Assembly (NCBI GenBank): GCA_950097015.1
Contig: CATNEN010000001.1
Coordinates: forward strand, 13,702,001-13,766,000
DNA length: 64,000 nucleotides
Reading direction: 5' to 3'
Source: Macrostomum hystrix
Taxonomy: Eukaryota > Animalia > Platyhelminthes
Shown: one piece after another, positions 18,651 through 50,007 of the stretch
Numbering within the stretch: position 1 is the stretch's first letter
How the letters are laid out: every line of letters begins with the position of its first letter
Translations under genes and position numbers: made by a program
The notes under the pieces: generated by a model
Databases searched by the model: none
What the model saw: only the letters and a program-made list of their open reading frames with translations
What the model was told of the DNA's origin: nothing

Positions 18651-18683
18651 TTGGTGAGCCCGACACCCGCCATTCCGTTTTAA

Positions 18684-29824: not shown

Positions 29825-29879
29825 TGTTCTATATTTAGAAATACACTACGGAGATCAAAAAAAAGGTCATTCGGCTTTT
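29825..29879 (+). repeat. Left terminal direct repeat of the 20-kb element
   Basis: TGTTCTATATTTAGAAATACACTACGGAGATCAAAAAAAAGGTCATTCGGCTTTT, 53/55 identical to 49905-49959. Confidence 0.85.
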
Positions 29880-30114
29880 ACAGCCATAGACGTGTGCAAG
29901 AAATACACTAAGGAGATAAAAAATGTCTTTTCAGCTACGCATGCGCCTGCTGTAAGTAGTAGCTATAGCAGTGCAGAAACTGGCTAGTCAGTGAGTTGCA
30001 GCTAGAAGAAGCTGCAAATTTGGATTTCGGCTTTGGTTTTTGGCTTTGGATGCTTCAGTTTCTTCGAACTGATCTCAACTGAAAAGCACTCTGGTACCAT
30101 TTATTGACATGTAA

Positions 30115-30755
30115 CTTTCGCGAAAACATAGTTGGCGGATAGTGAAAGCGAGGGATAGTGAAGAGAGGATCAAATCGAAGGAAGGGGAGGAAAGCAAAAG
30201 TAGGTTGACTGCACAGATTGTAGATTTGTACTGATGTGTTACTTTCGCGAAAAATTATTTGGAGGATAGTATACAGGAGGAAAGTGAAAGCGAGGGAGAG
30301 TGAAGAGAGGATCAGGATCATCAGATCCTGAATCAGAATCCAGAATCCTGAATCCAGAATCATCAGATTAAAGGAAGGGGATCAGGAAAGCGAAGGTATA
30401 GGGGAGGAAGCTAGGACAGAGTGAAGGGAGGATATGCAGAGAGTCAGACACCACCACCTACCCAACCACCTGCACTCTGCATCCACCCACCCAAATTCGT
30501 ACGACTGATTCATTGTAATTATTAATTCATTGTACTGATCGATGTCTTACTTTCGAGAAAACATATTTGGAGGATAGTACAGGAGGAAAGTGAAAGCGAG
30601 GGAGAGTGAAGAGAGGATCATCAGATTAAAGGAAGGGGTTCAGGAAAGCGAAGGTATAGGGGAGGAAGCTAGGACAGAGTGAAGGGAGGATATGAGAGTG
30701 AGACACCATGCACCACCTACCCAACCTGCACCTGCACTCTGCATCCACCCACCCA
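30115..30755 (+). repeat. Three degenerate purine-rich direct repeats
   Basis: TTTCG(C/A)GAAAA...GGATAGT...GAAAGCGAGGGA(T/G)AGTGAAGAGAGGATCA at ~30115, ~30242 and ~30549. 30369-30493 is repeated at ~30626-30755. Confidence 0.75.
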
Positions 30756-30917
30756 ACACCACACACCACACCACACCACACACCACACACCACACCACAC
30801 ACCACACCACACCACACCACACACCACACCACACCACACCACACACCACACCACACCACACACCACCCACCCAACACCACACACCACACCACACCACACA
30901 CCACACCACACCACACC
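30756..30917 (+). repeat. (CACCA/CACACCA)n microsatellite
   Basis: Visible simple repeat. Confidence 0.95.
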
Positions 30918-30937
30918 CTGCAGCAGAACTCCAATTA

Positions 30938-31530
30938 TAAGAGTTTATGGACTTAGAGAATTTACAATCAGTAAATTCTCGACCGTCCCAAGGCTTAAAT
31001 AGTGTGGTGAGATTGGGGCGGGATAGAACGAGCCAGTTAGTATATACTCTAAAGAAAGGTGCGCGCTGTACACTTTCGCTGGAGGCAATATGACGGAGAT
31101 TATATCTAGATCGGGCTTGATGACGACTAGTTACTATAATAGATGACCGAAAATGCATGGTGTTTCTATTTTTAGCTTTAGGCGCACCTTTCTTAAGAGT
31201 ATATACTGGCTTGCGTGCCCCATAGACTTCAATAGGCTGCCATTTAAATACACACGAGCCAGCTTGTATATATATACTCTTAAGAAAGGTGCGCCGTAGG
31301 CTAAAAATAGAATCGAATCGCCCGGGGTTTAGCCAGCCCGGCTATATACTAGCCCCCATATGCCGACGACGACGACGAAGTCAAGTTGCGAAAAAACAGC
31401 TCGCGCACCTTTCTTTAGAGTATATATATAATACCTGCATTTACTCCACCAGCCACACAAACTAAGCTCTGGGGACGGTCGAAAATTTTATCACTGACAT
31501 GATAAAATTCTCTAAGTCCGTAAACTCTAG
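30938..31530. repeat. ~590-bp imperfect palindrome with four alternating TATATACTCT(A/T)AAGAAAGGTGCGC boxes
   Basis: 30939-31000 pairs with ~31460-31530, ~31041-31066 with ~31401-31426, and 31163-31217 with 31253-31312. Centre near 31235. Confidence 0.85.
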
Positions 31531-31895
31531 TTTATACGTATAGACCGAGTGGGCAAGCAGCATCGGCTGCCTGAATCACATATCCGTACATATATGTGAT
31601 GGATGTCGATTCGAAAACTGACTTGGCTGTGAATAGACTCAAATGCTGGTATTTTCGCGAAAAGTGTATTTATTTTCGCAAAAATACTGATATGTTTCCA
31701 AAACAAAGGTAAGGGTAGTATTTTTGCAAAACGTTCCTGAACTACTCTCTATATTCGCTGAATAAAAATTATCAGTCTGTTAGAAAAAAAATTGTATTAG
31801 TGGTCAAGATTTCACCATTTGCAGACAAACGTCATTAAAACTCGAACATGCGAAATAAAATAAATATAAATAGCCAGATAACACACTATTTGATT

Positions 31896-31981
31896 GTTAG
31901 TGATCTGGCGTGCAGGTCTAAGGCATTTCTCTCTAATACCAGTGGCTCGGGTTCGAATCCCGGTCAGCCTTACGCTTTTTT
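31896..31981 (+). ncRNA. tRNA-like (Pol III type 2) unit, copy 1
   Basis: A-box-like TGGCGTGCAGGTCTAAGGC, T-arm CGGGTTCGAATCCCG, oligo-T terminator, upstream TATAAATA. Anticodon arm is not canonical. Confidence 0.55.
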
Positions 31982-32164
31982 GTTATTAAAAAAACAGCTA
32001 ACATTTTACTATCAATGAAAATAAATCTTTACTAGAAATCTATTTTTTTATATTCGAATCCCCACTATTTGTGGATCCCCATTATTATTAACGTACTTTT
32101 GCTCGAATACGCCAGTTAAGAAAAGAAAAGCAATATAAATAGCCAGACAACACACACTTTAATT

Positions 32165-32250
32165 GTTAGTGAACTGGCATGCAGGTCTAATGCATTGTCG
32201 CTAGTACAAGTGGCTCGGGTTCGAATCCCATTCACCCAACGCATTTTTTT
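32165..32250 (+). ncRNA. tRNA-like unit, copy 2
   Basis: Same A/B boxes (TGGCATGCAGGTCTAA; GGGTTCGAATCCC). Ends GTTAGTGAA/TTCACCCAAC can pair. Oligo-T follows. Confidence 0.55.
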
Positions 32251-32718
32251 ATTTAAAAAAAATGGGCAACATTATACTAGAAATGAAAAAATATTTTTAC
32301 TAGGAATCTGTTTTTTTATATTGGAATCCACACTTTTTGTGTGGATCCCCATTATTATTAATGTTTACTTACTACTGCAATATTACTTATAGTAGGGCCG
32401 ATTGCACCTGAAGTAGTAAAGTATACTGCGAAAGTAATTGAATTAACATGGCTAGTCTATATACTTGTAATGGTTTTTTCGCGAAATAGCCATAGAAATT
32501 TTATCTATTAGTATTTGCGAATTGGGGATTGCAATACACACGAGTGAATTTTCGCGAAAAAAAAGTTTTGTCTGTAGTCAAACCTAGAACTACAGTTGAG
32601 TACAGTCGCAAAAGTGACCTATGTAAGACTGAGCGCGCTTAACATCTACTTTGTGACCGACTGACTGACCGACCGAGTAATTACGAGTTAATTCCTACGC
32701 CTCGACTTGAATTTTGAA

Positions 32719-35434
32719 ATGTCAGCATTTCGTGGCCGTGGAAAGAAGGCTCGTGTGGATGCCAGCATTGCTACACCGGATGCTAATGGTCTACGCCAGA
32801 CTATGATCGTGGATTACTTTAGATCTCAGCAGTCAACCGATCGTCCTACTGGCGCAGCATCTAGACCGAGTGTGCAAGCATCATCGGCATCATTTACAGC
32901 AATGGCAGGAACGGCTGGTCGGGCATCGGCTGCCTTCACTGTTCCCCGCCTTGCAGTAATACAGCAGCAGCAGCAGTCGAAACAGCAGCAGCAGCAGCAG
33001 CAGCCGAAGCAGCAGCAGCCGAAGCAGACTGTCCCATCGAGTGCAATTCGGAAGCGTCGATATGCCCGATCGACTCTACGCAAGCGGACGCGTACAGTTG
33101 TCGATTTGGATGCTTCGTCTAGCAATTCATCGTCGTCTGATGCTGAAGACACTGGCGTTGGATCTCTAGTAGCCATGCGACAGCCTCTGGTTATTGTTGC
33201 CCAACCAATTTGTGGCGCCGGCGACCATGCTGATCGCATAGAGTCCACGCCTAAAGTGCTATCATCTGAAGATGACTCAGCGGACGACTTGCTAGCAGAC
33301 GACGTACAGCTGGAGATTGTGGACGAGTGGACGAGCAATACAGACAATGTAGAGTCTAATACTGCCCCTGTTTTGACGGCCTCTAATAGTTCAGCCTTGT
33401 CATCGCAGCTAGTCGATGATAAGTACAAAACAGAGGTGGCAGAATTATTGCGCGTTAATGGCGAGTCGACTATTCCTAAAAATAGTGCCGCACTTGGTGC
33501 CTGTCCGACTTCGCCAGATTATGCGCCTCGCTCTACACCGGCAATGTCTGTCATCGAGAATGGGACAACATCCGATGCTGATGAACCAGTTCGCGCTGTA
33601 TTCTCTCCAGCGTATGTCGACGCTTCTCAACCAAAAGCGCAACAGTCGGGACGACTGCAGCAATCGCAGCAGCAGCAGCAGCATCAACAGCGAGAGCAAC
33701 AACCGCAGCAACAGCCGCAGCAGCAGCAGTGGCGGCAGCCGCTGCGGCAGCAGATACAACGGCGTGAACGGCAGCAGCAAGAAGTTGGTGGCGTGGCATT
33801 TGCTCCGATAGCCGATGAATATGCGTTGTGTCGTTCGACATCACCACTTCTACGGCTATGTCCTCGAGCTCCAATTACCGACTACGCCTCTTTAACAGCA
33901 GAGGGCAGGTCGGTTCTTATGACTAGAAGGACGCTACATCTTATAGAGATTGCATTCATCTCGAGCGATGTGGAAAAATTCAAGGCGTTTCTAGAAGATG
34001 AATTGGTAGCTCCATGTGCACAGTTTGCCATCGGCGCAACATCATGTATTCAGGTTGACATGCTGACCAGCGAAGAAATCCGAGCGCGTCGTCAGCAGAA
34101 ATACAACATGTCAATCCGTGAATGTTTAGGAGCTCCGAATCATCCCAATGGTTTGCTGATGTTCCTGAACCTGCGCCAACCAGAAGATGGTTACACTGTT
34201 TACTGCGGACTGCATGCCCTTTTGATGGAATCTGCGGAAGCTTCGGCCTACCTGCATCCTACAATGTGTAGAATGACAGTGTCTGGTGTACGCAGTGCGT
34301 CAAGTGCAATTAAGCTTGTTACCAGTACGGACGAGTTTCCAGCTCTTTTCCGCGTTTCTACTCAAGAGTGCAGCTTGCTGACCAAGGCCTTTTGCTGGGT
34401 TGCTGCTCATGAGACGTCATCTACTGAGCCTTTGCTAGATAGTGGCTTCATGTTCGAACACTTTCGTGTCAGACAAGAGCTCAGCGATTACTTTAAGGTG
34501 ACTCAGATGAAACGCGTAATAGCAACAGAGGTGCTAGCTGGTTGCCAAAACTGTCGCCCTACTGCCGCTGCCGCCGCCGCCGCTGCTGATGATGCTGCAA
34601 CAGCCGACTATGCGAGGACGACCTTGCCTACTCAGCTGGAGGTATGCAAAATATTATAATACATGACATTTTTTAGCACACGTACGAGTATTGATCATTG
34701 AATTTTTGCTGTTGTTTTAATTCAAATAATTATTACTTTTGGACAATTAATTAATTAATTGTATGCGAACCTACCTAACAACACAACAGGTCTCTGCTGC
34801 TGCTGCTGATGTTGCTGCTTCCGCTGCTACTGCTGTTCAAGTATTTGATGCCGCCGTCGCTCATGTTCCCCGGTTGATCGCCGCCGCCACCAACGTGTGC
34901 CCAACTGTAAAGGCTGTGTGCAGCGCGTTGCAATTGCCAACTGGTGTCGTCTATCTATACGGCCCGTCTGGCGTTGGGAAGACCCACTCTGTGCAAAGCC
35001 ATCTCGGTTCTACGAAAGTGCTGAATATCCAGGTGCAGAAGCGGTCTAACACGTTTATGTTTGACAAGCTCTGCGAGACTATACACACTGCCATGTTTAT
35101 TGACGAGCTACGCCCGCAACTGTTTGATGACACATCTGAAGTCATGTGCACACTACTTCGTTTGGTCAATGGAGACACTTTTGAAGTCAATGCTAAATAC
35201 AAGGCTATTCGACACGTCTCTTGGCTCAATCGACTGTTAGTGCTTGCTGGGCATGCTCCGGTCAGTGCGTATTCGATGGACTTTCAGCGCCGATTAGAAC
35301 CGACACCTGATGGGCACAAGCGTCCGGTAGTTGCCATCTTCATTGGTCATTCCCTCAGTGCCGACTACCAATGCGATGGACAATGCCACCCAATACGCAA
35401 TGTGTTTGGCGATCACCCGGACCGGCGAGTATGA
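32719..35434 (+). CDS. Rep-like/superfamily 3 helicase protein, 2 exons (32719-34641, 34790-35434), ~855 aa
   Basis: Phase-0 GT-AG intron joins the two ORFs in frame. Walker A GPSGVGKT, Walker B MFIDE, B'-like LLRLVNGDTFEVNAKYK, motif C position LVLAGH, Arg finger FQRRL. Low-complexity Q/S-rich N-terminus. Confidence 0.8.
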
Positions 35435-35814
35435 GCGACAAGACGGTGCTGTTAGCAGGTTTTTTTTACACCAAACTGCCTGCATGCTGCTATTTTATCG
35501 ACTATATTTTTACTCGGTCATTTAGTCAGTCAGTCTTTCAGCTGTTTTTTTATATTTTTTACTGTTTCATACTGTTTTTGTATGCAATTTTATAATTAGT
35601 CATACAAATAAAATCAATTTATATGCTCAGTTTTGAGCTTTTATTGTTGTGAAGTAGGTAATTGCTACTTCTGTTGCAAAAAAATCATATTTCTTATTAC
35701 TATATATAGTATTACGCATTCAAACGAAGGTATATGCAAAGTGTCAAAGTATTAATTAATAAAATTCATTTACAGGTGTTATCGCGAAAATAAAATAACG
35801 ACTTTTATCCGAAA

Positions 35815-36500
35815 GTAAATAGCGGTATTTTTGCAAAAGTTATTAAAGTCGTGTGAATGGCTACATCTTAAGGTATTTTCGCGAAAAGACTGCTATCCTA
35901 TTAAACGCAGGTAGTAAAGGTAGTTTGCGGCTGTGACCTGGAAAAGTTATTAAAGTAGTGTGCATGGCTACATCTTAAGGTATTTTCGCGAAAAGACTGC
36001 TATGCTATTAAACAAAGGTAGTTGGCGGTATTTTTGCAAAAGTTATTAAAGTAGGTTATATGCGTGGCTATATGTTAAGGTATTTTCGCGAAAAGACTGC
36101 TATGCTATTAAACAAAGGTAGTTGGCGGTATTTTTGCAAAAGTTATTAAAGTAGGTTATATGCGTGGCTATATGTTAAGGTATTTTCGCGAAAATACTGC
36201 TATGCTATTAAACGCAGGTAGTAAAGGTAGTTTGCGGTATTTTTGCAAAAGTTATTAAAGTAGTGTGCATGGCTACATCTTAAGGTATTTTCGCGAAAAT
36301 ACTGCTATGCTATTAAACAAAGGTAGTTGGCGGTATTTTTGCAAAAGTTATTAATGTAGGTTATATGCGTGGCTATATCTTATGGTATTTTCGCGAAAAT
36401 ACTGCTATGCTATTAAACAAAGGTAGTTGGCGGTATTTTTGCAAAAGTTCTTGAAGTTGTGTGCGTGGCTATATCTTAAGGTATTTTCGCGAAAATACAT
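35815..36500 (+). repeat. Tandem array of ~100-bp units with palindromes GTATTTTCGCGAAAATAC and TTTTGCAAAA
   Basis: About seven consecutive units visible. Confidence 0.93.
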
Positions 36501-36941
36501 GCATATTATTAGACTAAGTATATTGTACTTTTTTAACCATAGACATATTTAGTATTTCTGCAAATTGCCAAGAGTCATGAGTGCATTTTTTTCGCGAAAA
36601 GACTATATATTATCTATATATTGTATTGAATACCTGTGAATGAAAAATAATGACAGTTTTTTTGCAAAAATACTAACGATACGATGATGAACATATTTTT
36701 GCGAAAGAACATGTTCTAAAACAAATACAAACTGCGAAATTGCTTTGAGTACTAACATACAAACAATAATGCTTAACATAGTGCTGATGATTGTTGGTGA
36801 TGGTATTTTCGCGAAAAGATTAGTGTATTTTCAATCATTTACAACACAACACATATGTAGATATCAAATAGTATTGATAATCAGAAGCTTTATAATATCA
36901 CTGTAATTAATCATAGTGAATGTATTTTTTATAATATCATT

Positions 36942-37622
36942 TCAAACTTGTGCCTCCTCAATTGCAATCGCTACTGCTGCTGACGCTTCCGCCTCTTCAG
37001 CTGCGGCATACAATAGGCAGTCGTCAGCTGGGTCAAATGTACAGCTACTGGCTGTCATCGCTGCTGCTGACGCCTCTGCCTCTTCAGCTGCGGCATACAA
37101 TAGGCAGTCGTCAGCTGGATCAAATAAACAGCTACTGGCTGCCATCGCTGCCGCTGCTGCTGACGCCTCTGCCTCTTCAGCCGCGGCATACAATAGGCAG
37201 TCGTCAGCTGGGTCAAATAAGCAGCTACTGGCTGGCATCGCTGCCGCTGCTGCTGACGCCTCCGCCTCTTCAGCTGCTGCATACAAAAGCTCGTCATCAG
37301 CTGGGTCAAATAAACAGCTACTGGCTGCCATCGCTGCCGCTGCTGCTGACGCCTCCGCCTCTTCAGCTGCTGCATACAAAAGCTCGTCATCAGCTGGGTC
37401 AAAGCAATTGGCTGCCATCGCCGCTTCGACCTCTTCAGCTACGGCGTATAACAAATGGTCGTCTGCCAGGCCGAATACAAAACTGTATGTTGAATTGTAT
37501 GTTTCATCATACCCGTAGTCATCATAGCCTGGCTCTTCATTCAGCTCAACGTCATCGTCGTGACAGTTGGATTTTTCCGCATCGTTTAGAGTTGGCCCTG
37601 ATGATGATGTTGATGTAGGCAT
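36942..37622 (-). CDS. Acidic repeat protein, ~5 copies of FDPADD(E/C)LLYAAAEEAEASAAAAAMAASSCL
   Basis: 226-aa ATG-initiated ORF built from ~93-bp repeats, with a TATA-like TTTAAATA upstream. The opposite strand is also open, so the strand is inferred. Confidence 0.55.
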   Translation of the reverse strand: MPTSTSSSGPTLNDAEKSNCHDDDVELNEEPGYDDYGYDETYNSTYSFVFGLADDHLLYAVAEEVEAAMAANCFDPADDELLYAAAEEAEASAAAAAMAASSCLFDPADDELLYAAAEEAEASAAAAAMPASSCLFDPADDCLLYAAAEEAEASAAAAAMAASSCLFDPADDCLLYAAAEEAEASAAAMTASSCTFDPADDCLLYAAAEEAEASAAVAIAIEEAQV

Positions 37623-37858
37623 GGCGAGACAATGGGGGCAGTATTTAAAATGTTGAACTTGTTTTATTTACTTCATTAATTGTCCAAAGTTTCAACTGCA
37701 TTGATTACATATTCCCAATCACATAAGATTATCAGCAAGCTTGTTACCATAGACTAGCAATAGGGTTTTTAGTTGGTTACTTTACTAAGGTAAGTGGCGT
37801 AACTTATTTACACATTTTAGATTCTTAATTATTGTTTCAAATAAAAAAAAACTACAAC

Positions 37859-38317
37859 ATGTCATCACTGGGTGCGCGGCACAATGGCGGAGATCGAGAT
37901 CGAGATATCGACAGAGAGGATCACAACTCTGGCAACGACAAACCGATCTCGTGCCCTACCGTCAGTAGCAGCACAGATGTCGTGATTGGCACTGAGCGAC
38001 GTCGACGAAGGCACAGCTCGGATAGTAGTTCAGACTCGGATTTTGCTATTCTGCCTTCACGTCAACGTGTTCAGTACGTATTGCATCGTCCAGGTGTCGT
38101 GCGCATTTACAATCAGAGATTTGGAATTGTGAACGCCAATCCGACACGTGATTTAGCCGGCCAATTGCAACTGCCGCAGCATGCGCAAGTGACCGATATA
38201 CAGTCACCAATTATAAGCAGCAGCAGCAGCAACAGTAACAATGGCGGCACTGGCACTGAAAGAGAGCGTGGCGATGCCAATCGTGCTGCAAATAACCCAG
38301 ATTTGAATGACATGTAG
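37859..38317 (+). CDS. Hypothetical low-complexity protein
   Basis: ATG-initiated GC-rich ORF in an AT-rich context, with an RRRRR basic patch. Confidence 0.45.
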   Translation: MSSLGARHNGGDRDRDIDREDHNSGNDKPISCPTVSSSTDVVIGTERRRRRHSSDSSSDSDFAILPSRQRVQYVLHRPGVVRIYNQRFGIVNANPTRDLAGQLQLPQHAQVTDIQSPIISSSSSNSNNGGTGTERERGDANRAANNPDLNDM

Positions 38318-38830
38318 CAATTGTTTTGTTAAGCACTGTTGCCATTGCTTATAATGAAATTAATTAACTGATTAATATAATTAGAAGTTTCATGTATTTG
38401 ATTCATACATCAGAGTATTTAAAATCGACAGTTCATGATGCCTGCAAATGTTTTAAAGTACTTTTATATACACTAGCTCTCGTTCACCTTCACGTGGTAT
38501 ATTCAAAGCATAAGAGTTTGCCGTCACTATTGACAATATATTGTCGCGTTTACCATTAATCATAATCAGACGACTGATGAGATCAGTCAGTAATAAAATA
38601 TTAATACGCGAACACAGATGTGTGCAGGTAGTCAACCGGTAATTATTAATACGGTTTTTATTAAATTTCACCAATACATATAGAGTATAAATATATATAG
38701 AATTTCATTGGTTGAACAAATAATCGTGCCATTCTACAATTAGTCTGATTTGCAAAGTCGCGAGAGCAAAAATAAACGTGTAAACTATAATACATAAAAT
38801 TCTGCATATAAATTCTGTATTTTACAGCAT

Positions 38831-39211
38831 TCATTGTTCGATGTACCAATAGCGAACTCCATGTATGATGAGCTGAAGTTCAGCTTGGGCTTCCTCTAAA
38901 AGCTCTAGCACTTCGATGATGTCTTGTGCTTCATCGTCTCTTACACCAGTCACGGACAAGACAGCCTGATAGTCTTCTGCTGACCGGTGCTTTTGCAGCC
39001 ATTGTTGAGTGCGCCGTAATAATAAACATAGCTCATTAGCGTTGTACTCTGCATTTGGAACACCGCGTTGCAAACTAGGTAGCTGCTCGAAGCACCCTCG
39101 ATGCGCTATGAACCGGCCAATGCAATCTATGCGACAGCTGAGAAAGAGTTGAAATACGCGCGGCTGAAGATACATTTGTACTAACTGCATCTGATCGGCA
39201 ATTAACGACAT
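38831..39211 (-). CDS. Small orphan protein, paralog of 43842-44261
   Basis: Aligns without gaps to the 139-aa ORF (C.I.C...F...RG..EQL..LQR..P.AE.N...L...WL..H...Y..L.VT...EA.D..E.L.LLE...ELQ.I.HG..YW). Confidence 0.8.
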   Translation of the reverse strand: MSLIADQMQLVQMYLQPRVFQLFLSCRIDCIGRFIAHRGCFEQLPSLQRGVPNAEYNANELCLLLRRTQQWLQKHRSAEDYQAVLSVTGVRDDEAQDIIEVLELLEEAQAELQLIIHGVRYWYIEQ

Positions 39212-39499
39212 GTTCAGTCAGTTAGTAAATCAAGTAAAGCAAAAAATAGTTTTGTTAAAAAAAATTCTAAACTTTAATCGTTTAATAAGAAGCGATATAC
39301 TAATATTAATATTAATGCGATAAGAAGCCCCCATAGAGTATAATTTATCGAACACAGGTGAGTCAGTCCAGAGACAAATCAAATGAATACAGGCCAGTCT
39401 GGGTATTAAGAACAAGAAATCTTTCTCGGCCAAGAAATCAGCCCACAACCAACGCCATACGGACAGAAGCTACAGGATAGCGAGCGACACAGCACGGAC

Positions 39500-39880
39500 A
39501 TGAGCAACAATAGCAACAAATTTCCCTCCTTCACCGCGGCGTTCCGGGAACACGTACTGGCCTCCGCTGCGGCCGAATTGGAAAGCGCATTGCGAGCAGC
39601 GATGGATGCAGCGACAGCAGTGGCGGCAGCGGAGGCCTGGACGCCGGGACGTCGCGGGAAGGAGGCCGAGATGGCTGCCGCTATGCGGCGGGTCCGGGCG
39701 GCCATGGTCCGCATGGCCCGGGCCCGCCGCATAGCGGCAGGGCTGGATCCTTATGTGAGTAGTAGATTTCGATTCCTTTCATTTGAATATTTATGAACAC
39801 ATATGCATGGTAACATCTGAGCTAACAAACTAAATGAAACCTAAAACCCATCTTTCATCCCGCAGCCGGGTGTGCTATAA
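39500..39880 (+). CDS. Small Ala/Arg-rich protein, probably spliced (donor ~39755, acceptor ~39865)
   Basis: GC-rich ATG ORF ending at GTGAGT; downstream CCGCAG|CCGGGTGTGCTATAA gives a short last exon. Confidence 0.4.
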
Positions 39881-41531
39881 TCAGTCCGACTATCTGGTGT
39901 GCTATAATCAGTCCGACGGACCGTATTAGACATTAACAATCATTAAAATATAATCAGTCCGTTTAATAAAAATTCTGTTATTGTTTGTAAATAAAATAAG
40001 CTTAAAATTGTTCTCAAAATACATAACTTCTTATCTTGGTTATTTATTTTATCATTAAAATAATATGAACTGATTGTTGGTTATGTGGTGTACATTGGCG
40101 ATGAGACTTACTACAATAACGACGTAATCGTAATCGATCAGTCTGGTATATAATTTCAAGTAAAGTTTATACAAGTTTCTCATGTAAGAAAATATTAATA
40201 AAAACGGATTCGTTTAAAAAAGTAAAGTACAAACAACGAATAAATTATTATACGCTTACGTCTTGCTAGATATGCCAAGATGCACTATTAAAACGTGCAG
40301 ACTATAGGTATGTAGTGCATTAAATTGTGCGTATTTTACCAAAGACATATCTGCTTGGTACAGCTCGATTTTTTCGCGATTTTTTTTCTTCGTATCCACA
40401 TTTTTTCTTTCGAAAATACAGTCAGACGTTTTTGGCCATAGACAAAAAAACGGCTGCATATAATTCATATTGTATGCAGTATTTTTGCAAAAGATCTTTC
40501 AGTAGCGTGGCTATATCTATGGTATTTTCGCGAATATAGCCAGACATTTCATCTATAATTAGTATTTGCGCACTGCCAATTTTTTTTTCGACAAAGTAAG
40601 AAGGCTCTTATGGAAGACAGCATAGTCACACCGGACTGCTACGGTATTGTAGTGTATATAGTGACTCGGTGTGACGGTTCGGTGGTTCACATACTGCGAC
40701 ATGTCACATACTGGTTAATATCAATTTGCAATTTAACGTTGTACATCGCATAGCTGCTCGTGCCAATGTTAACTTGACGTTGTACGTCTGGTTAAATTCG
40801 CGCATTTTGCGCAACGCAAAATACAGCAGTACTTTGCATAGACGTACAATGTCGAGCTTAACATTGCCTATGCAAGTCTCAACCTCATGAGTGTTTCCTG
40901 GTATGTCCTCATTCTCCCACTGTCTTTCGACTATCTTTTGTATTTTTAAATGTTTCATACAGTTTTTGTATGCCAATTTTATAAAAATGACTGCGACCAA
41001 GTGACTGTCCTTTCAAGCGCAGCTACAGTACATGTCAAATTAGCATTAATAAATAAATAATAAATATAAATAATTTAGTGTTTGTTATTTGTATAATCAT
41101 TAATAGTACACAACTTCTTATCTTGTTTATTCTATCATTAAAATAATATGAACTGAACTGACTGGCGGTTATGCGGTGTACATTGGCGTTGAGACTTATT
41201 ACAAGACCGACGTAATCGTAATCGATCAGTCTGAGATATTATGTTTGTATTTATACTGCGCAAAACCTGAGAATAATGAAGTAGACTTAAAACTAAAATT
41301 TATGTAGTAGAAATAGACAGTAGTGGAATCAAATCGCATAAAGGTATATATTTTTTAGTTTATTCTTATATCAACGTATATTAAATCAATCGATTAAATC
41401 AAGTTCAGTCTGAATTTATTATAAGTGAGTCAGTCGATTATTCAGCAAGCCAGCCAGCCAGCCAATCAGCCAGTAGACAGACAAAGCAGCCCAATCTGAG
41501 TTGCACGCAGAGCCAATTGAATTGAATGAAA

Positions 41532-43040: not shown

Positions 43041-43239
43041 TGCAGCTTAAATATAGTCGTTCGCTGGCTAGCCTGCTGAATAATCGACAGAGTGGTCGTT
43101 GTGGCTGAATTTTAATTATCGATTTGCGTGCGCGCGCGCATATATTTACCTAGCACTGCTCATATCCTGTACAGAGCAGCAGTCAGACACATAGACATAG
43201 ACAGGCATCGTCAACTGGGTCTAAGCTATTTCCATATAT

Positions 43240-43600
43240 AGTATTTTCGCGAAAATACTGATATGCTCTATAAACAAAGGTAAGGGCAGTATTTTTGCAA
43301 AAGTTCTTAAAGTAGTATGCATGATTACATCTTTGGTAATTTCGCGAAAATACTGCTATGCTATTAAACAAAGGTAGTTGGCGGTATTTTTGCAAAAGTT
43401 CTTAAAGTAGTGTGCATGATTACATCTTTGGTATTTTCGCGAAAAGACTGCTATGCTATTAAACAAAGGTAGTTGGCGGTATTTTTGCGAAAATTCTTAA
43501 TGTAGTGTGCATGGCTACATCTTATGGTATTATCGCGAATGCAGATACGCGGCGGTTGAAGACAATAAGAAGACAATATTTTTGCGAAAGTACTTTAAGT
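43240..43600 (+). repeat. Second array of the ~100-bp palindromic unit
   Basis: About four units, same orientation as 35815-36500. Confidence 0.9.
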
Positions 43601-43841
43601 ATTCATGATGACTATATCTAATGGTAATCAATAACCAAATATGACTTGACTTCATTATATTTTATTATTATTCATGCCGCGAATACAACTTGCAACAGGT
43701 TCACTCATGTATTTTTGCTTGAGCGAATTAATTGGGTTAAATAAATAGCTGGCATTAATTAAACGGCGAACAGGAAACTACAATTAGCTGTATTAAGTCT
43801 ACCTAAAACTAGTGCTGCTACTGCTGCTGCTGCTGCTGCTG

Positions 43842-44261
43842 TTACTGCTCAATTCGATATCGGCGGCTCCGGAGCAACTCTCGCAGTCTAGCCCTTTGCT
43901 GTACGCCGCGCCAGTAGTCCAGGCCGTGTAGAATGTGCTGCAGCTCCAAACATGTGTCCTCCAGCAGGCCTAGCAGCTCGGCCAAGTCGAAGGCCTCGTT
44001 CTCTGTTAGGCAGGTCACCTCCAGGATGGTCTCGTAGCCCGCAGCTGTCTTGTGTTGTAGCAGCCAGTCCAGGAGGCTCTTCATCAGGGTGTGCAGCTGG
44101 GTGACGTTCAGCTCAGCAGTCGGGCAGTGGCGCTGCAGGCAGGTTAGCTGCTCCAATCGTCCTCGGTAAGTCAGGAACGGGGCCAGACAGGCGATGTCGC
44201 ATCTGGCCAGGAGTGCCACGGTGGCCGGCGAGCCGAACAGCGCCACAGGATGCGCATTCAT
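43842..44261 (-). CDS. Small orphan protein, paralog of 38831-39211
   Basis: Protein similarity retained despite different GC content and codon usage. Confidence 0.8.
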   Translation of the reverse strand: MNAHPVALFGSPATVALLARCDIACLAPFLTYRGRLEQLTCLQRHCPTAELNVTQLHTLMKSLLDWLLQHKTAAGYETILEVTCLTENEAFDLAELLGLLEDTCLELQHILHGLDYWRGVQQRARLRELLRSRRYRIEQ

Positions 44262-44589
44262 CGTGAGTTCTACACAACCAACAATGTCGTGAGTGCAACA
44301 GCAGCGCGTCTAACACTAGCAGAAGTAGAATTAGAATAGGAAGCAGAGTTCTAAATGGAAAGTAAATACAGTATTTTCGCGAAGGTAAGGGCAGTATTTT
44401 TGCAAAAGTAGCGTGACTACATCTTATGGTATTTTCGCAAATGCAGATACGTATTCTCAGACAAAGTGACTTTTTACCATAGACAAATTTAGTGTATTTC
44501 TGTAAATTGCCAAAACTCACGAATGAGTTTTTTCGCGAAAAGACAATATGTACTATATTGAATACTTGTAAATGAAAAATAGTGTCTGT

Positions 44590-45200
44590 TTTTGCGAAAA
44601 TACTGCTATGCTATTAAACAAAGGTAGTTGGCGGTATTTTTGCAAAAGTTCTTAAAGTAGTGTGCATGGCTACATATTATGGTATTTTCGCGAAAATACT
44701 GCTATCCTATTAAACGCAGGTAGTAAAGGTAGTTTGCGGTATTTTTGCAAAAGTTATTAAAGTAGTGTGCATGGCTACATCTTAAGGTATTTTCGCGAAA
44801 ATACTGTTATGCTATTAAACACAGGTAGTTGGCGGTATTTTTGCAAAAGTTATTAATTAAGTAGGTTATATGCGTGGCTATATCTTAAGGTATTTTCGCG
44901 AAAATACTGCTATGCTATTAAACAAAGGTAGTTGGCGGTATTTTTGCAAAAGTTCTTAAAGTAGTGTGCATGGCTACATATTATGGTATTTTCGCGAAAA
45001 TACTGCTATCCTATTAAACGCAGGTAGTAAAGGTAGTTTGCGGTATTTTTGCAAAAGTTATTAAAGTAGTGTGCATGGCTACATCTTAAGGTATTTTCGC
45101 GAAAATACTGTTATGCTATTAAACACAGGTAGTTGGCGGTATTTTTGCAAAAGTTCTTAAAGTAGTGTGCATGGCTACATATTATGGTATTTTCGCGAAT
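44590..45200 (+). repeat. Third array of the ~100-bp palindromic unit
   Basis: About six units with higher-order (~303-bp) periodicity. Confidence 0.92.
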
Positions 45201-45602
45201 GTAGATACGTATTCTCAGACAAAGTGACTTGTACTTTTTTACCATCGACCAATTTAGTATATTTCTCTGCTAATTGTCAATAATCACGAATGATTTTTTC
45301 GTGTATCTTCGGCTTTTAAGAAAACGAGAATAGTTTAATCTCAGTTTAATCAGATGATAATCAAATGATTTCATTTGTCAATTTATTTAATTACTAACGA
45401 AATAATCACAGTGTTGACAATCATTAGCATCTTAACAATATATAAGAGAGCAACAAACAGAACATATGAGATTCTCGGTTGTAAAGGGACGGGTATTAGT
45501 GGGGGTATCACAATTGACACAATTGATAATTGATAATAGTTTGGCAAATCAGACAATCAGCACATATAAAGTCAGGTGACACGACTGGGACAATATGAGC
45601 AT

Positions 45603-48600
45603 TCAGATGTCCAGTCTAGTTCTCGAACTGATCAGGCGCCCAGATCGCGTCCTGTATTCCGTTCGACGAACCACGAGTAGCTCAGAATCCGAGCTGGTCT
45701 CATTGTCATTGCTGACGTGCTGTTGTTCACCATCATCACCTTCTTCGTCGATATCGTCGTGAACGTTGCCTTGTCCAGCCGATGCTCCAAACATCGGCGG
45801 TTGACTAAGACTGCGTCGTCTAGACGATGTAGACGAAATAGGCGATGGTGTTGCTGAATCGATGGCCGGCTTTGTCGACTCGGTGTTGTCCGTTGTTGAA
45901 CATCTAGGACTAACCGTAGCGGGTCGCATTGTCGACATTCGAGGTCGCTTCTTGTCAGTGGCCTTGCAAATGGACGACCGTCGAGTGCGTCGCTTGCGTG
46001 TGCGTTGACTATGTGGCATCACAATGTCATCAGCAGGTAGAGGAGATGCAGCCGATGAATTGGTTGCGTCCAGATCAACGCTACAGGCGGCAGAGCGACG
46101 ACGCTTCGTGTCGTTTTCGGCTGTTGGATGTCGTTGATGTCGACGATCAAGTGGCCGATTGTGACAGAATGTCTCGAAGCATCCTCTGACGTCGTCGGCG
46201 ACCATCAGATTGGCCTGCTGTTTGGCCAGGCGTCCATACGCATTCACGACACAGTTGCGCGATGTGTCGTACAGAGGCACCAGCTGGTCTAGCTTGTCGG
46301 GATGCGCGTGCACATAGGCCGACAGTACATTTCGACGACCATCGCCCATGCGATAGGGCCGATCGATGACCAACTCGGCGCCCTGCTTGACAAGCGTGCT
46401 GAAACTTGTCGAGTCACGCTGCTTGCCACGATGCGTAGGAAACAACAGACATTTGCCTGGCCTGACATGGATGTTGCACTCGGCGAAGTATGGCAATAGA
46501 AAGTTGTCTATCCATTGCAGTAGACATTCGCCGACTTTGCGTGGCGCAGTCCAGCTTGCACCTTTACCACGACCGCCCTTTTTGTGTGCCACTTCGGTAG
46601 GCGGCAGGACTGTGACAATGGTGGAGGACGTTGATACGCCGCTATTGAGTGCAGCATCCAAATAGCAACGCCGGATCGCGACCCAAGGACGTAGTCGATT
46701 GGCATGGACAATTGCTGCACAGAAGAAGGCCAGTTCACGCGTGATCGGCATAATAAATGTATTCCATTTGCCGACGACGTTGGCCATTCGACGTGCACAT
46801 TGTCCAATGCGACCCCAGTAGCCCTTCACGGGTAGATGAGACCACGAATGTTTGGCGACCATATCAATCAGGCAGTCTAGCCGGTTGTGAATGATGCGCC
46901 ATTCGTCAGCGGTCAGGAACTTATCCGTGTAGGACAGCTGGCGTTCGTCATCGCGCAGGTGATAGATATTCTCTTGCCGCTGACGAATCAATCCAATGCA
47001 AGCCTGTACATGTTAAAGGGTTATGAAAGATAAAGTACATGCAGTAGCTTCTACAATTGTTCGTGATATATCAACTAACATAGTATACAATATGCGACAC
47101 AACAACACTGCTCACCATGATTGATTCGATGCGGCTAGTCAACAGACCAGATACTGCAGTCTGATGATAGAGAATACCATCTTTGCGCGGGTCAGGACAG
47201 GCAGGCAATTCTGACGCGGCCTTGACAATGTCGGCATGCACGTTGGCAAACAATCCATCTGGTGGCGAGGTCAATTGGAACGCGTTCATAACACTAGGAG
47301 CACCGAAGTCGTTGTTGGCTGCTAGAAACTTCTTCGCGCCGCTCAATATGTTATGAAGCTCGTTCATTCGCTGTCCAACAGTCGATGGTTTCCAGATATG
47401 GCGCTTCACCATCTCGTCCAAATCGAATTGGATGCGCGCTGGATTGATGAACCACATCTCGACTGTGACATTGATTGCGTGTAGGAGACGACTAGTTGTA
47501 GCATGATAGTTCCGCTGGATTGCTTTCCTACGGCTAACATGCGATGCGTTCTCTTCTACACAGCAATGACCCTTGAACCAGATGTCGCCGACATTGTCTA
47601 GTTGCTTGTACATGTGTTCAGATGCAACGTGGTAGTCTGGGCCGTCGAAAACAACAAGCCGAGACGTCTTGTGCCTCCGTTGCAATACAAGCTCCTCTTC
47701 ACTGACAGAATCATCAGTATTTTCCACGTCAGATTTAGAGGTCTGAGTCTCTGCTTGTCGCTGACTGACAGCATTGGTGACTCCGACCGGAACATAGTCT
47801 GACGTATACTGGAGAATTGCTTCTGTCAGATTGACCAGATTCTGCAAGCTAGTACACACGCGCGGATGCTCAGCGTTGTGGGCTTTCTGCAGAATCTCGT
47901 TGAGGCCGGCCGCATTCAGACGCAGTCCATTGATAAACTCTGTTTGACAGGAAAGTTATAAATATTTGTTGATTATTTTTTTGTCTTTATGTGTAAATTT
48001 AAAAATGTAAAGGCATGTACAACAATATTTTAGACCACTTACTGATCGCTGCCACATTGTCGTTGGCATTATCGAATTCTGGCATCGTACTCGTTTCGTT
48101 TTGCAGTCGCTCGATGTCGTGACTGACAATATCGGCCGTGTAAGATGGTCCGGCACGATCGAAACTAGCCAACACCGTTGCTACTAAAGTAGACGGTGTG
48201 ACAGACGATGCACTGTTGATAATGCGTACAGCATTGGACTGTCCAGCAGAAGACGATCCCGCAGAAGACGCTAACACGACAATAGGCGGCTCAATGTTTG
48301 CACCCGCGTCTATCGAATCAGACGAAGAGTCGTCGCTGTCACTTGACGAACGGGTTGCATTTGCTGCCTCTGTAATTGCCGGTTTACGCTTGCATGTCCT
48401 GGCAATGTGTTTACTGAGATGCTGAACACCTTTGCCACAGTATTGACAATAAGACAAAGATGCATCGGATCCATCCCGACGTAACCGGATGATCTTCCAT
48501 ACGGTCTTTGCCTTGACATCATACGATGCAGTCGCTGCGGGTCGTCGAACCTCTGGGATCGTGCTCCAATCAAAAGCCGAAACGAAGTCCGAATGGTGTC

Positions 48601-48664
48601 TAATAAAATGCCTTACAACATTCGAGTTCGGAATTGAAGCTTTGCAGACTGGGCACGTATCCAT
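45603..48664 (-). CDS. Zinc-finger plus tyrosine recombinase-like protein, 3 exons (48664-48043, 47939-47116, 47003-45603), ~948 aa
   Basis: Two phase-compatible GT-AG introns join three ORFs. YR-type motifs in order: HANRLRP (Arg I), AHKK (Lys), LLFPTHRGK, MGDGRR (Arg II), LYDTSRNCVVNAY (Tyr). Both His positions are substituted. Confidence 0.7.
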
Positions 48665-49247
48665 TTCGCTGGTTATTGTTTGATGCTGTTCCAAAGTGCT
48701 TATGACAGAAGAACGTTTACACAGATTTGTAAGCGAGCGCGCTCGGCTTCTGACTTAAGCTGCTATCGTGACCCGTACGACAGTTTAATCACATAAACTA
48801 TCATTCAAGGTTGGTCTATGGCGAAAAAGCATAATATCGAACTCATAATATATTTAACGTTGCTATATTGTCTACTCATAGTAGAGTAGGTAGTTTCGAA
48901 CAGAAAATGAACATAAACACGAATAATTATTTGATTTCTGAATGTCTTGTCTATCTATATGTTGAAAAAGCACTTAAATTATTGTTGATTATTCCAGAGG
49001 TATTTTCGCGAAAGTACATATGTATTCTCAAACAAAGGTTAATGCAGTCTTTTTGCGAAAATACTTTTGTGCTAATATGATTACTCTTTCTAGTGGTATT
49101 TTCGCGAAAAGACATATGTGTCCCATATAAAAGTAAAAGAATTATCAAAAGAAGGTAAACGCCGTAAACGTTAATAATAATGGGGGTTCACAAAAAGTAG
49201 TTTGGTAGTAATTAGTAGTAAATTATTAGCATATTTTTTTTAATTGA

Positions 49248-49335
49248 GAAAAATGCGTAGTGCCGACTGGGATTCGAACCCGATCCACTGCTACTAAAAA
49301 TGAATGCTTTAGACCTGCATGCCAGATCACTTGCA
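49248..49335 (-). ncRNA. tRNA-like unit, copy 3 (inverted)
   Basis: Minus strand TGGCATGCAGGTCTAAAGC...GGGTTCGAATCCC...TTTTT, within a ~330-bp inverted homolog (49165-49490) of 31741-32095. Confidence 0.55.
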
Positions 49336-49904
49336 AAATTCCGGCGTGTTATCTGGTTATTTATATTGATTTTCTTTCGGATGTTGGATTTTTAATCATT
49401 TTTGTCTGCAAATAGTGGAATCTTGATCACGTTTTCAATATTTTCTAACAGAACAATAAGATTTATTGAGAGAATATAGATAGTACTGCTGATTACTATT
49501 ATTGTTAGTATTTTCGCGAAATACGGATACGTATTCAAACGAAGGTAGAACAGTATTTTTGCAAAAGCACTTTAAGTACTTTAGTTACATGAGATGATGT
49601 TTTCGCAAAATGCTTCAAGTGAAGTACCAATGTTAATGCAGGGCGTTATACGTTTGCGAAAGAACGAAGGTAAAAAGTTAGTCCGTCCATGCAAACTCGG
49701 TGCATTCGCGAAAGCACAATGAAATGGTGCATGAAGGACAAAGTGATATACATTAGTACTTTCGCAAACATGACTACATGCTCCGAAGTGCCCGATTGCA
49801 AAAGGACATAAGCTTAGCTGTTCTAATAATAGAAATACACTACGGAGATAAAAAAATGTCATTTCGTATATGCGTCAGTATTTTCGCGAAATGACTACCT
49901 ATTG

Positions 49905-49959
49905 TGTTCTATTTTTAGAAATACACTAGGGAGATCAAAAAAAAGGTCATTCGGCTTTT
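49905..49959 (+). repeat. Right terminal direct repeat of the 20-kb element
   Basis: 53/55 identical to 29825-29879. Related partial copies at 49819-49860 and 29899-29927. Confidence 0.85.
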
Positions 49960-50007
49960 TGCGCGCGCATGCCTACTGTTAGTAGTAGCCTAGTAGCCAT
50001 AGGGAGA

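What the first reader, a model, noticed from the sequence alone, without database searches (positions are those of the whole stretch)
29825..49990. Candidate new class of ~20-kb metazoan integrative element: tyrosine recombinase, Rep-SF3 helicase, palindromic repeat arrays and Pol III units
Seen: the block lies between two collinear halves of one Helitron ORF (LRGT..LEAMIRTLG at ~29.6 kb; YLIKYATKGE at ~50.36 kb), is bounded by 55-bp direct repeats, and has its own repeat family not seen elsewhere in the window. Its two largest genes are spliced, convergent, near the ends, and each is preceded by a tRNA-like unit. Paralogous orphan genes lie between them. Known: Cryptons have a YR without a helicase, DIRS/Ngaro need RT, Polintons have pPolB and capsids, Helitrons use HUH plus SF1 PIF1, and Starships are fungal. 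None matches this gene set. Inference: an element that excises and integrates via YR and replicates as a dsDNA circle with its own SF3 helicase and host polymerases, i.e. a plasmid-like or capsid-less virus-like element. Its ORFs are open while the host Helitron is decayed, suggesting it is young or under selection.
Basis: partly seen in the sequence, partly recalled or inferred. Interest (0 to 1): 0.92.

Follow-up and report, generated by a model that had tools for sequence, protein, structure and literature searches.

The report
Capsid-less recombinase-helicase element in animal genome
A 20-kb block in what is likely a flatworm-type animal genome has matching end repeats, its own palindromic repeat arrays, a likely DNA cut-and-rejoin enzyme and a likely ring helicase but no recognisable virus coat gene, and is predicted to copy itself as a circle and re-enter chromosomes, which would be an undescribed kind of mobile element.

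Summary
The block is real and coherent. It has 55-bp direct repeats at 29825 and 49905 (53/55 identical). A private palindrome has 53 of its 55 window matches inside the block (1 expected). There are three TATA/A-box/B-box/T-run units, a 590-bp nested palindrome and two spliced, open, convergent genes (855 and 948 aa).

The 948-aa protein is likely a divergent tyrosine recombinase (YR): R, K, R and Y lie in register and both histidines are replaced. Language-model and profile evidence is modest; Pfam and fold searches are not significant. The 855-aa protein ends in a likely SF3 helicase; 'Rep' (HUH nuclease) is unsupported.

Seven Macrostomum lignano gene models (97-100% alike) encode a 41-44% identical relative. 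One of them also carries a homologue of a small orphan gene of this block, which suggests a conserved multicopy unit.

Corrections: the Helitron junction is not clean, and YR plus SF3 already co-occur in capsid-bearing polinton-like viruses. Mobility, true ends, circles and copy number could not be tested, because no genome or reads were available.

Verdict: likely an undescribed capsid-less integrative replicon; the mechanism is inferred.

The parts
29825..29879 (+). Left 55-bp direct repeat. It contains a TTCTA-N4-TAGAA palindrome; a partial second copy lies at 29899-29932.
   Evidence: the palindrome occurs 3 times in the window, all at the block ends
30940..31528 (.). Nested imperfect palindrome with four alternating copies of a 24-bp unit. 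Candidate replication origin or recombination/telomere-junction site (inferred).
   Evidence: arms I1-I6; DNA fold of 31010-31460 z = -10.7, 0 of 100 shuffles as stable
31743..31994 (+). Left copy of a ~250-bp promoter-side segment that is repeated inverted at 49236-49485 (80-83%). It includes Pol III-type unit 1.
   Evidence: I2, I3, I6
31860..31985 (+). tRNA-like Pol III-type unit 1 (TATA, A-box-like stretch, B box at 31950, T-run)
   Evidence: not a tRNA by ARAGORN or Rfam
32130..32252 (+). tRNA-like Pol III-type unit 2 (B box at 32218)
32719..35434 (+). Spliced 855-aa gene (exons 32719-34641, 34790-35434). Low-complexity N-terminus, an unassigned ~250-aa domain, and a C-terminal likely SF3 helicase (Walker A 34961-34984, Walker B 35090-35107, B'-like 35153-35203, motif C-like 35234-35254 without Asn, Arg-finger-like 35282-35296).
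   Evidence: Pfam RNA_helicase E=0.0023 and DUF5906 E=0.008, both below their curated cut-offs
35776..36820 (.). Array of ~95-105-bp units, each with two TTTYGCRAAA palindromes about 48 bp apart
36942..37622 (-). Orphan ORF, 226 aa, acidic Ala-rich 31-aa repeats
   Evidence: no Pfam family at its cut-off
37859..38317 (+). Orphan ORF, 152 aa, largely low complexity
38831..39211 (-). Orphan ORF, 126 aa; paralogue of 43842-44261
   Evidence: 45/112 identical; differences by codon position 53/36/66
39500..39796 (+). Orphan ORF, 98 aa, Ala/Arg-rich. Its likely homologue forms the first 70 residues of the M. lignano YR-like gene model P0008, so the two genes are probably neighbours there too.
   Evidence: rank 1 of 785 window ORFs, score 67 against a maximum of 47.7 in 600 shuffles; plain BLASTP missed it
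40704..40958 (-). Orphan ORF, 84 aa
41532..43040 (-). Orphan ORF, 502 aa. N-terminal double Cys/His finger paralogous to exon 1 of the YR-like gene, then low complexity.
43240..43600 (.). Palindrome array upstream of the 502-aa gene
43842..44261 (-). Orphan ORF, 139 aa; paralogue of 38831-39211
44370..45200 (.). Palindrome array upstream of the 139-aa gene
45603..48664 (-). Spliced 948-aa gene (exons 48664-48043, 47939-47116, 47003-45603). Zn-finger region, helical middle domain, likely YR catalytic domain (Arg 46697, Lys 46583, Arg 46337, Tyr 46238; both His positions replaced), low-complexity tail.
49236..49485 (-). Inverted copy of the left promoter-side segment, with tRNA-like Pol III-type unit 3, upstream of the YR-like gene
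49905..49959 (+). Right 55-bp direct repeat. A partial copy lies at 49819-49865, and similarity to the left end continues to 49989.
27070..29620 (+). Host site: decayed left part of a Helitron, itself interrupted by a small LTR element remnant (28140-29486)
   Evidence: DUF6570 E=1.2e-8; Helitron_like_N E=0.035; 187-bp LTR pair at 95%
50335..52058 (+). Host site: decayed right part of the Helitron (HUH motif-III region and PIF1 helicase)
   Evidence: PIF1 E=5e-18; Pif1_2B E=2.2e-7

Best explanation
The block is a self-contained 20-kb genetic unit with direct end repeats and open spliced genes, likely a mobile element of an invertebrate, whose likely tyrosine recombinase is predicted to excise and integrate it and whose likely SF3 helicase would let the excised circle be copied by host enzymes without a capsid. 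SHOWN: the unit's anatomy, open frames, selection on the orphan paralogues, and a multicopy relative of the YR-like gene in M. lignano. INFERRED: (1) the YR recombines the two end repeats, which carry a TTCTA-N4-TAGAA palindrome and repeated flanking sites, to release a ~20,080-bp circle. (2) In that circle the two big genes point away from one ~2.3-kb control region, which holds the joined ends, the nested palindrome and the Pol III units. (3) The SF3 ring loads there and host primase and polymerases replicate the DNA in theta mode, because no primase, polymerase or HUH nickase was found. (4) The TTTYGCRAAA arrays are binding sites, for the element's Zn-finger proteins or a host cell-cycle factor, and act as enhancers or origins. 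(5) The Pol III RNAs and small orphan proteins modulate the host.
For: UNIT. The private motif has 53 of 55 matches inside the block; direct end repeats; an inverted promoter-side duplication before both big genes; a nested palindrome with z = -10.7. YR. ESM Atlas top hits score 0.96 (unnamed clusters); named sets Integrase_2 and Phage_integrase score 0.94. The motif Lys, Arg and Tyr are kept with near-identical spacing in the window, P0008 (44%) and P0004 (24%). The AlphaFold model puts the Lys between two strands after the Arg helix. HHalign to 29 phage proteins chosen for a His-less C-terminal motif (27 of 29 hit an E. coli YR profile) aligns 84 columns in register, score 24.3 against a maximum of 22.55 in 200 shuffles; with the selecting motif cut away it scores 20.2 against 19.2 in the same register. 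YR structures recur among non-significant Foldseek rows (ranks 6, 8, 10, 41; 5 of 50 rows). SF3. The two SF3-type Pfam models cover Walker A through the motif C region, and the motif order fits. FAMILY. Seven M. lignano UniRef models are 97.2-100% alike. P0008 matches all three exons in order, and its N-terminus matches the 39.5-kb orphan. Two more distant relatives come from unnamed contigs.
Against: No Pfam, NCBIfam or PHROG YR hit at E<=1. HHalign against 13 E. coli YRs was at chance level (12.05 against a shuffle median of 11.6). HHalign probability was only 5.7% even, where the template set was chosen by a motif. hmmsearch with that profile did not pick out the window ORF. Atlas recognition was 2212, below the 2300 line. 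The model pLDDT is 46, with no fold hit at E<=0.001 and no YR among the top 50 of the wide VIA search. Both catalytic His positions are replaced. The SF3 scores are below the curated cut-offs, motif C lacks Asn, and no homologue was found. SF3-YR linkage outside this window is not shown. The Helitron junction is untidy, so the 55-bp repeats may not be the true ends. The seven M. lignano models may partly reflect haplotype redundancy of that assembly (recalled). The linkage test used a frame split chosen after inspection; without it the match ranked 2nd of 785 or 3rd among window peaks.
Confidence: 0.55

Rival explanations
1. An endogenised DNA virus (polinton-like-virus or virophage relative, or an unknown invertebrate virus) whose capsid and packaging genes were lost in this copy or are too divergent to recognise.
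For: YR plus SF3 helicase at this size is a known polinton-like-virus combination: YR in 232 of 298 cluster C1 genomes, where TVpol-S3H is the dominant replicase (PMC12220804 passages). Endogenous nimaviruses have C2H2 + SAM-like + YR integrases with five of seven key residues (PMC10871703 section 10). Pol III RNAs and interspersed palindrome arrays are virus-like traits (recalled: VA RNAs/EBERs, baculovirus hrs).
Against: The block is bounded on both sides inside one window. Its orphan ORFs are 84-226 aa, or low-complexity (502 aa), and none has a capsid, packaging-ATPase or protease family hit. The ends are direct repeats, not long terminal inverted repeats. There is no primase or polymerase hit. 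The genes have spliceosomal introns. No relatives were found in IMG/VR. The orphans were not folded.
Confidence: 0.2
2. The YR-like protein is not an integrase but a nickase (rolling-circle initiator working with the SF3 helicase) or a telomere resolvase acting on the 590-bp palindrome. The block would then be an episome that entered the chromosome by host repair, with the 55-bp repeats as terminal redundancy.
For: Both His positions are replaced. YR-like relaxases that nick one strand exist (MobK, TcpM, MpsA; PMC8152469 passages). No HUH domain accompanies the helicase. The junction with the Helitron shows missing host sequence and no short target repeat longer than 8 nt. 55 bp is far longer than the 4-6-bp repeats of Cryptons (PMC3212892).
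Against: Described YR-like relaxases lack arm- and core-binding domains, whereas this protein has long N-terminal domains. The best profile match is to phage integrase-like proteins that also lack these histidines. Near-identical multiple models in M. lignano suit repeated integration.
Confidence: 0.12
3. A large Crypton- or Starship-like YR transposon that carries cargo. The helicase is a passenger or a transposition helper, and the element does not replicate as an episome.
For: YR transposons with introns and direct repeats are known in animals and fungi (PMC3212892, PMC13465315 passages). The SF3 motif C lacks Asn, and no SF3 relative was found.
Against: No DUF3504 or DUF3435 hit. The end repeats are 55 bp, not 4-6 bp. 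Both big genes share a duplicated upstream segment and the same private motif, which argues for a co-evolved unit rather than cargo.
Confidence: 0.1
4. A chance pile of unrelated repeats and genes in a transposon graveyard, or an assembly artefact.
For: The window is packed with nested elements, and no reads or second copy could be examined.
Against: One private motif runs from 30116 to 49891 and almost nowhere else. The ends and promoter segments are paired, there are internal paralogues, and two genes are likely linked in M. lignano too.
Confidence: 0.03

Closest known systems
Polinton-like viruses and Sputnik-type virophages with YR and (TVpol/AEP)-SF3 helicase
   Same: YR plus SF3 helicase, 14-40 kb, integrate via a presumed circle (PMC12220804 passages)
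   Different: Those have jelly-roll capsids, a packaging ATPase, terminal inverted repeats and usually a primase or polymerase fused to the helicase. None was detected here. This element has direct end repeats, introns and Pol III-type units, and a likely animal host.
Cryptons
   Same: Eukaryotic YR DNA transposon, introns, direct repeats at the ends, circular-intermediate model (PMC3212892, PMC9977147 passages)
   Different: Cryptons have 4-6-bp repeats, an R-H-R-Y tetrad, usually one gene and DUF3504 in CryptonA. Here the repeats are 55 bp, both His are replaced, there is no DUF3504 hit, and there are about nine genes including a helicase.
Starships
   Same: Large YR-mobilised unit with extra genes near a terminal YR gene (PMC13465315 passages)
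   Different: Fungal, with a DUF3435 captain and variable cargo. Here there is no DUF3435 hit, and the companion genes share the element's own regulatory motif.
Endogenous nimaviruses with YR integrases
   Same: Animal host; YR with a C2H2 finger and an N-terminal helical domain, key residues partly missing; multi-exon YR genes in some (PMC10871703 section 10 and passages)
   Different: Full large-virus gene set (DNA polymerase, capsid, envelope) and insertion into telomere repeats or 28S rDNA; nothing comparable here.
PEVE/PIVE planarian virus-like elements; Replitrons; Helitrons
   Same: Flatworm extrachromosomal or integrated virus-like elements exist, with parvovirus non-structural-protein-like genes (PMC3198968 passage); Replitrons have short direct terminal repeats (PMC10288648 passages)
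   Different: These rest on HUH/Rep-type proteins. No HUH domain was detected here and a YR-like gene is present. The PEVE paper itself was not held.

Membership tests
Tyrosine recombinase superfamily | Catalytic Arg, Lys, Arg and Tyr in YR order and spacing | tested here: met
   Lys, Arg and Tyr are kept in the window, P0008 and P0004, and the first Arg in the window, P0008 and P0003; in-register alignment to phage YRs
Tyrosine recombinase superfamily | His of HxxR and second His/Trp | tested here: not met
   Gly/Ser/Met and Thr at these places; the phage set lacks them too
Tyrosine recombinase superfamily | Significant profile or fold match | tested here: inconclusive
   Atlas 0.94-0.96; HHalign above all 200 shuffles but probability 5.7%; no Pfam hit; best YR VIA Z 3.6, rmsd 5.2, 139 aligned, on a pLDDT-46 model
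Tyrosine recombinase superfamily | Recombinase activity | not testable with these tools
   needs an assay
SF3 helicase | Walker A, Walker B, B', motif C and Arg finger within about 110 aa | tested here: met
   motifs at residues 70, 113, 134, 161 and 177 of the exon (motif labels recalled); motif C has no Asn
SF3 helicase | Family profile above the curated cut-off | tested here: inconclusive
   RNA_helicase 18.8 bits against 21.5; DUF5906 17.2 against 27.6
HUH Rep (CRESS/parvo/PEVE/Replitron/Helitron type) | HUH endonuclease domain | tested here: inconclusive
   No Rep family in Pfam, NCBIfam, PHROG or PDB searches; the Atlas points weakly elsewhere (DUF3626, 0.89); the domain was not folded
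Crypton | 4-6-bp terminal direct repeats | tested here: not met
   55-bp repeats at the apparent ends; the true ends are unproven
Crypton | DUF3504-type or Crypton YR with an R-H-R-Y tetrad, YR-only content | tested here: not met
   no DUF3504 hit at E<=1; His absent; helicase and seven other ORFs present
Starship | DUF3435 captain | tested here: not met
   no DUF3435 hit at E<=1 for the window exons or P0008
Polinton-like virus / virophage | Major and minor capsid proteins and packaging ATPase | tested here: inconclusive
   no hit in Pfam or PHROG for 12 block ORFs at family cut-offs; ORF sizes and composition do not suit a double jelly-roll; no PLV capsid profiles or folds were available
Polinton-like virus / virophage | Terminal inverted repeats of hundreds of bp | tested here: not met
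   the only long inverted pair is 80-83% alike and lies 1.9 kb and 0.5 kb inside the ends
Polinton-like virus / virophage | pPolB, TVpol or AEP replicase | tested here: inconclusive
   no such family hit; the domain before the helicase is unassigned
DIRS/Ngaro | Reverse transcriptase and RNase H | tested here: not met
   none in the block ORFs, while the same scan finds RT in the window's Gypsy element at E=1.5e-33
Mobile element (any) | Several copies with shared ends and different flanks; circular intermediate | not testable with these tools
   no genome or reads were available; only indirect multicopy evidence from M. lignano
tRNA gene | Cloverleaf recognised by ARAGORN or Rfam | tested here: not met
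   fold z-scores -0.4 to -1.6

The most novel reading that the evidence does not exclude
A new class of animal integrative plasmid: a capsid-less, polymerase-less ~20-kb replicon. It integrates with a His-less tyrosine recombinase, amplifies as a circle with its own SF3 helicase from a palindromic origin between two divergent Pol III-marked promoters, and exists as several diverged families in flatworms and beyond.
Probability: 0.4. Interest if true: 0.92.

Novelty: categorically new. Interest (0 to 1): 0.8.

Why it matters
Animals have no recognised class of nuclear plasmids or integrative replicons apart from viruses and virus-like Polintons (own knowledge). A YR-plus-SF3 unit without capsid or polymerase would fill the gap between Cryptons, polinton-like viruses and small tumour-virus-style replicons. 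It would make the question of transitions between virus, plasmid and transposon testable in a laboratory animal, since a relative is multicopy in Macrostomum lignano. It is invisible to Pfam-based annotation (the relatives are labelled 'Ras-GEF' or 'C2H2-type'), so more families may hide among unclassified repeats. A site-specific recombinase with a defined end sequence could also be a genome-engineering tool for flatworms.

Tried and rejected
HOMOLOGUE SEARCHES. Word-indexed searches found nothing for the YR exon or the SF3 exon. They also missed P0001, which full HMMER found, so these blanks are weak. No related loci were found in IMG/VR or JGI metagenomes, and no exact match to two element DNA motifs in IMG/VR. 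None of 10 window ORFs is in the 15-billion-protein collection. tblastn against phage records gave only chance hits; the two inspected were a non-YR ORF and a DnaA-like gene. PDB sequence searches were uninformative.

STRUCTURE AND PROFILE. The single-sequence fold failed (pLDDT 36). The wide VIA search listed only helical bundles and no YR in its top 50, which is inconclusive for a low-confidence model. A profile of 13 E. coli K-12 YRs gave no signal.

IDEAS REJECTED. (1) A circovirus-type nonanucleotide at 35707 sits in an AT palindrome without a stem and is treated as chance (my estimate is about 0.35 expected in the block). (2) 'GLHALL' as an HUH motif has no profile support. (3) The Atlas lead to DUF3626 for the domain before the helicase (0.89, recognition 1714) is below the tool's own line and is kept as a lead only. 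(4) Rfam hits in the block are hairpin or low-complexity matches far below their gathering scores. (5) No short target-site repeat links the Helitron break points (three 7-8-nt matches only).

LITERATURE AND EARLIER NOTES. The PEVE paper was not held. Look-ups of earlier findings by sequence and by place returned nothing.


Full report
1. OBSERVATION. The block 29825-49990 is a coherent unit. Its ends carry a 55-bp direct repeat (29825-29879 and 49905-49959, 53/55). The longest exact word shared by the two ends is 30 nt, against at most 11 in 60 shuffles. The repeat core occurs twice at each end, and a TTCTA-N4-TAGAA palindrome occurs three times in the window, always in these end repeats. The palindrome TTTYGCRAAA has 55 matches in the window, 53 of them inside the block, where about 1 is expected by chance. 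It forms ~100-bp tandem arrays at 35.8-36.8, 43.2-43.6 and 44.4-45.2 kb, and clusters upstream of both large genes. BLASTN found no similarity between the block and the rest of the window.

Three units with a TATA box, an A-box-like stretch, a B box and a T-run lie upstream of the two big genes. They are not tRNAs. Two of them belong to a ~250-bp segment repeated in inverted orientation near the two ends. A 590-bp nested palindrome lies at 30940-31528; its central 451 nt fold with z = -10.7, and 0 of 100 shuffles are as stable.

The Helitron context is only partly as described. The halves are in order and decayed. But the left half stops about 200 bp before the left repeat and the right half resumes about 375 bp after the right repeat, beyond a minisatellite. 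Helitron coding sequence is missing between them, so no clean target site can be read.

2. GENES. Exon arithmetic gives open frames of 855 aa (+, two exons) and 948 aa (-, three exons; the best of six open splice combinations) with GT-AG introns. Seven smaller ORFs lie between them. One orphan pair is 45/112 identical, with differences concentrated at third positions (53/36/66) and 26 of the 45 identical residues on different codons, which indicates selection on the protein. The 502-aa ORF shares a double Cys/His finger with exon 1 of the 948-aa gene (151 against a maximum of 44 in 1000 shuffles).

3. THE 948-AA PROTEIN. No Pfam, NCBIfam or PHROG recombinase model hits it, and a profile of 13 E. 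coli YRs gives chance scores. Full HMMER over 1.84 billion representatives returned 4 relatives. Two are M. lignano clusters (7 gene models in all); two come from unnamed contigs. P0008 (1084 aa) matches the three exons in order at 38, 35 and 44%.

Across these relatives an Arg, a Lys, a DxRR stretch, a (G/D)TS stretch and a Tyr are conserved with near-constant spacing. The ESM Atlas gave 0.96 to unnamed clusters and 0.94 to Integrase_2 and Phage_integrase clusters, with a recognition value just under the tool's line. An AlphaFold model from five sequences is poor (pLDDT 46) but places the Lys between two strands that follow the Arg helix, as in YRs (topology recalled). Fold searches were not significant, though YR entries recur: ranks 6, 8, 10 and 41; five named integrase or VLF-1 rows of 50; 5 of 50 rows, best Z 3.6; none in the top 50.

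I then fetched 43 viral loci carrying a recalled His-less YR motif. 42 were usable, 29 remained after dereplication, and 27 of the 29 hit the E. coli YR profile. HHalign aligned 84 columns in register, with a score of 24.3 against a maximum of 22.55 in 200 shuffles. With the selecting motif removed it kept the same register at 20.2 against 19.2. Probabilities were low (5.7% and 1.9%), and hmmsearch alone did not detect the window ORF. I put the YR assignment at about 85%. Both catalytic His positions are replaced, so activity is inferred.

4. THE 855-AA PROTEIN. Exon 2 has Walker A, Walker B, B'-like, motif-C-like and Arg-finger-like motifs in SF3 order (labels recalled). Of the 10 Pfam families listed for the core, the best is RNA_helicase (E=0.0023) and the longest match is DUF5906 (E=0.008). 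Both are SF3-type (recalled) and both are under their cut-offs. Motif C lacks the usual Asn. No homologue was found. I put SF3 at about 80-85%. Nothing supports an HUH 'Rep' domain, primase or polymerase upstream; the Atlas gives only a sub-threshold lead to DUF3626.

5. FAMILY AND LINKAGE. The seven M. lignano models are 97.2-100% alike over all 21 pairs, which suits a young multicopy element; assembly redundancy could explain part of the number (recalled). The first 70 residues of P0008 do not belong to the YR gene but resemble the 98-aa orphan at 39.5 kb, partly in a shifted frame. BLASTP missed this. A plain local alignment ranked it 2nd of 785 ORFs. A frameshift-tolerant scan made it the best place in the block, reached by 0 of 200 shuffled queries, but 3rd in the window. 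A frame-aware profile ranked it 1st of 785 with a score of 67 against a maximum of 47.7 in 600 shuffles (frame split chosen by eye). So an orphan gene and the YR gene are probably neighbours in a family only ~40% identical, in a different relative orientation. Linkage of the helicase outside this window is not shown. The source organism is not established; introns and these relatives point to an invertebrate, likely a flatworm.

6. MECHANISM (inferred, 0.55). Recombination between the end repeats would release a ~20,080-bp circle. In it the two convergent genes become divergent around one control region holding the joined ends, the nested palindrome and the Pol III units, a layout I recall from small DNA tumour viruses. 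The SF3 ring would open that origin for host primase and polymerases, and the YR would re-integrate circles. The palindrome arrays would bind the Zn-finger proteins or a host factor. The rivals are a virus remnant that lost or hides its capsid genes (0.2); a YR-like nickase or resolvase with repair-mediated integration (0.12; YR-like relaxases are described in PMC8152469, passages); a cargo-carrying YR transposon without episomal replication (0.1); and a chance composite (0.03).

7. KNOWN SYSTEMS. YR plus SF3 helicase is not new as a pair: it is common in polinton-like viruses, which also have capsids, a packaging ATPase and terminal inverted repeats (PMC12220804, passages). Here the unit is bounded on both sides, and none of 12 block ORFs hit a capsid family at cut-off, but the orphans were not folded. 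Cryptons have 4-6-bp repeats and an R-H-R-Y tetrad (PMC3212892 and PMC9977147, passages). Starships use DUF3435 (PMC13465315, passages). Endogenous nimaviruses have similar finger-plus-YR integrases but a full virus gene set (PMC10871703, passages and section 10). PEVE/PIVE and Replitrons rest on Rep-type proteins (PMC3198968 and PMC10288648, passages). PMC9241645 gave reference-list passages only, and the PEVE paper was not held.

Ten full-text searches listed no description of such an element. Subscription journals, Repbase/Dfam and all supplements were not seen and may hold one.

8. VERDICT. This is a real, intact-looking unit that fits none of the families tested. Its two key enzymes are assigned with moderate confidence, and its mobility, ends and circular form are untested. 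Interest 0.8. The boldest reading, a new class of capsid-less integrative replicon in animals, has probability about 0.4.

Noticed in passing
window 5319-12428: Element with perfect 1706-bp terminal inverted repeats around a P-element-like (TNP-like RNase H and GTP-binding insertion) transposase gene on the minus strand; looks young.
   Followed up: partly
window 18355-22799: Intact-looking GC-rich Gypsy-type LTR element with identical 299-bp LTRs and an open 1182-aa pol frame.
   Followed up: partly
window 23258-24040 (+): OTU-like cysteine-protease ORF (weak Pfam hits), possibly the N-terminal part of the Helitron.
   Followed up: no
window 28140-29486: Short decayed LTR element (187-bp LTR match, 95%) with integrase remnants and a tRNA-derived stretch near 29.2 kb, inserted in the Helitron.
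   Followed up: partly
window 49997-50333: 15-bp minisatellite (10 copies) with one inverted copy at 50316; possibly a small non-autonomous transposon between the element and the Helitron.
   Followed up: partly
window 33781-34551 (+): The domain before the helicase has a weak language-model lead to DUF3626/DUF3841 (0.89). The search listing links DUF3626 to a Salmonella effector paper, and I recall that family as ADP-ribosyltransferase-like. Unconfirmed.
   Followed up: partly
window 29884-50187: The 8-mer CCATAGAC/GTCTATGG occurs 10 times in the window, 7 of them inside the block; a possible second binding motif.
   Followed up: no
window 39679-39736: Strong GC-rich hairpin inside the 98-aa orphan ORF.
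   Followed up: no
window 40014-40154 and 41097-41242: Short non-coding-looking duplication inside the block.
   Followed up: no
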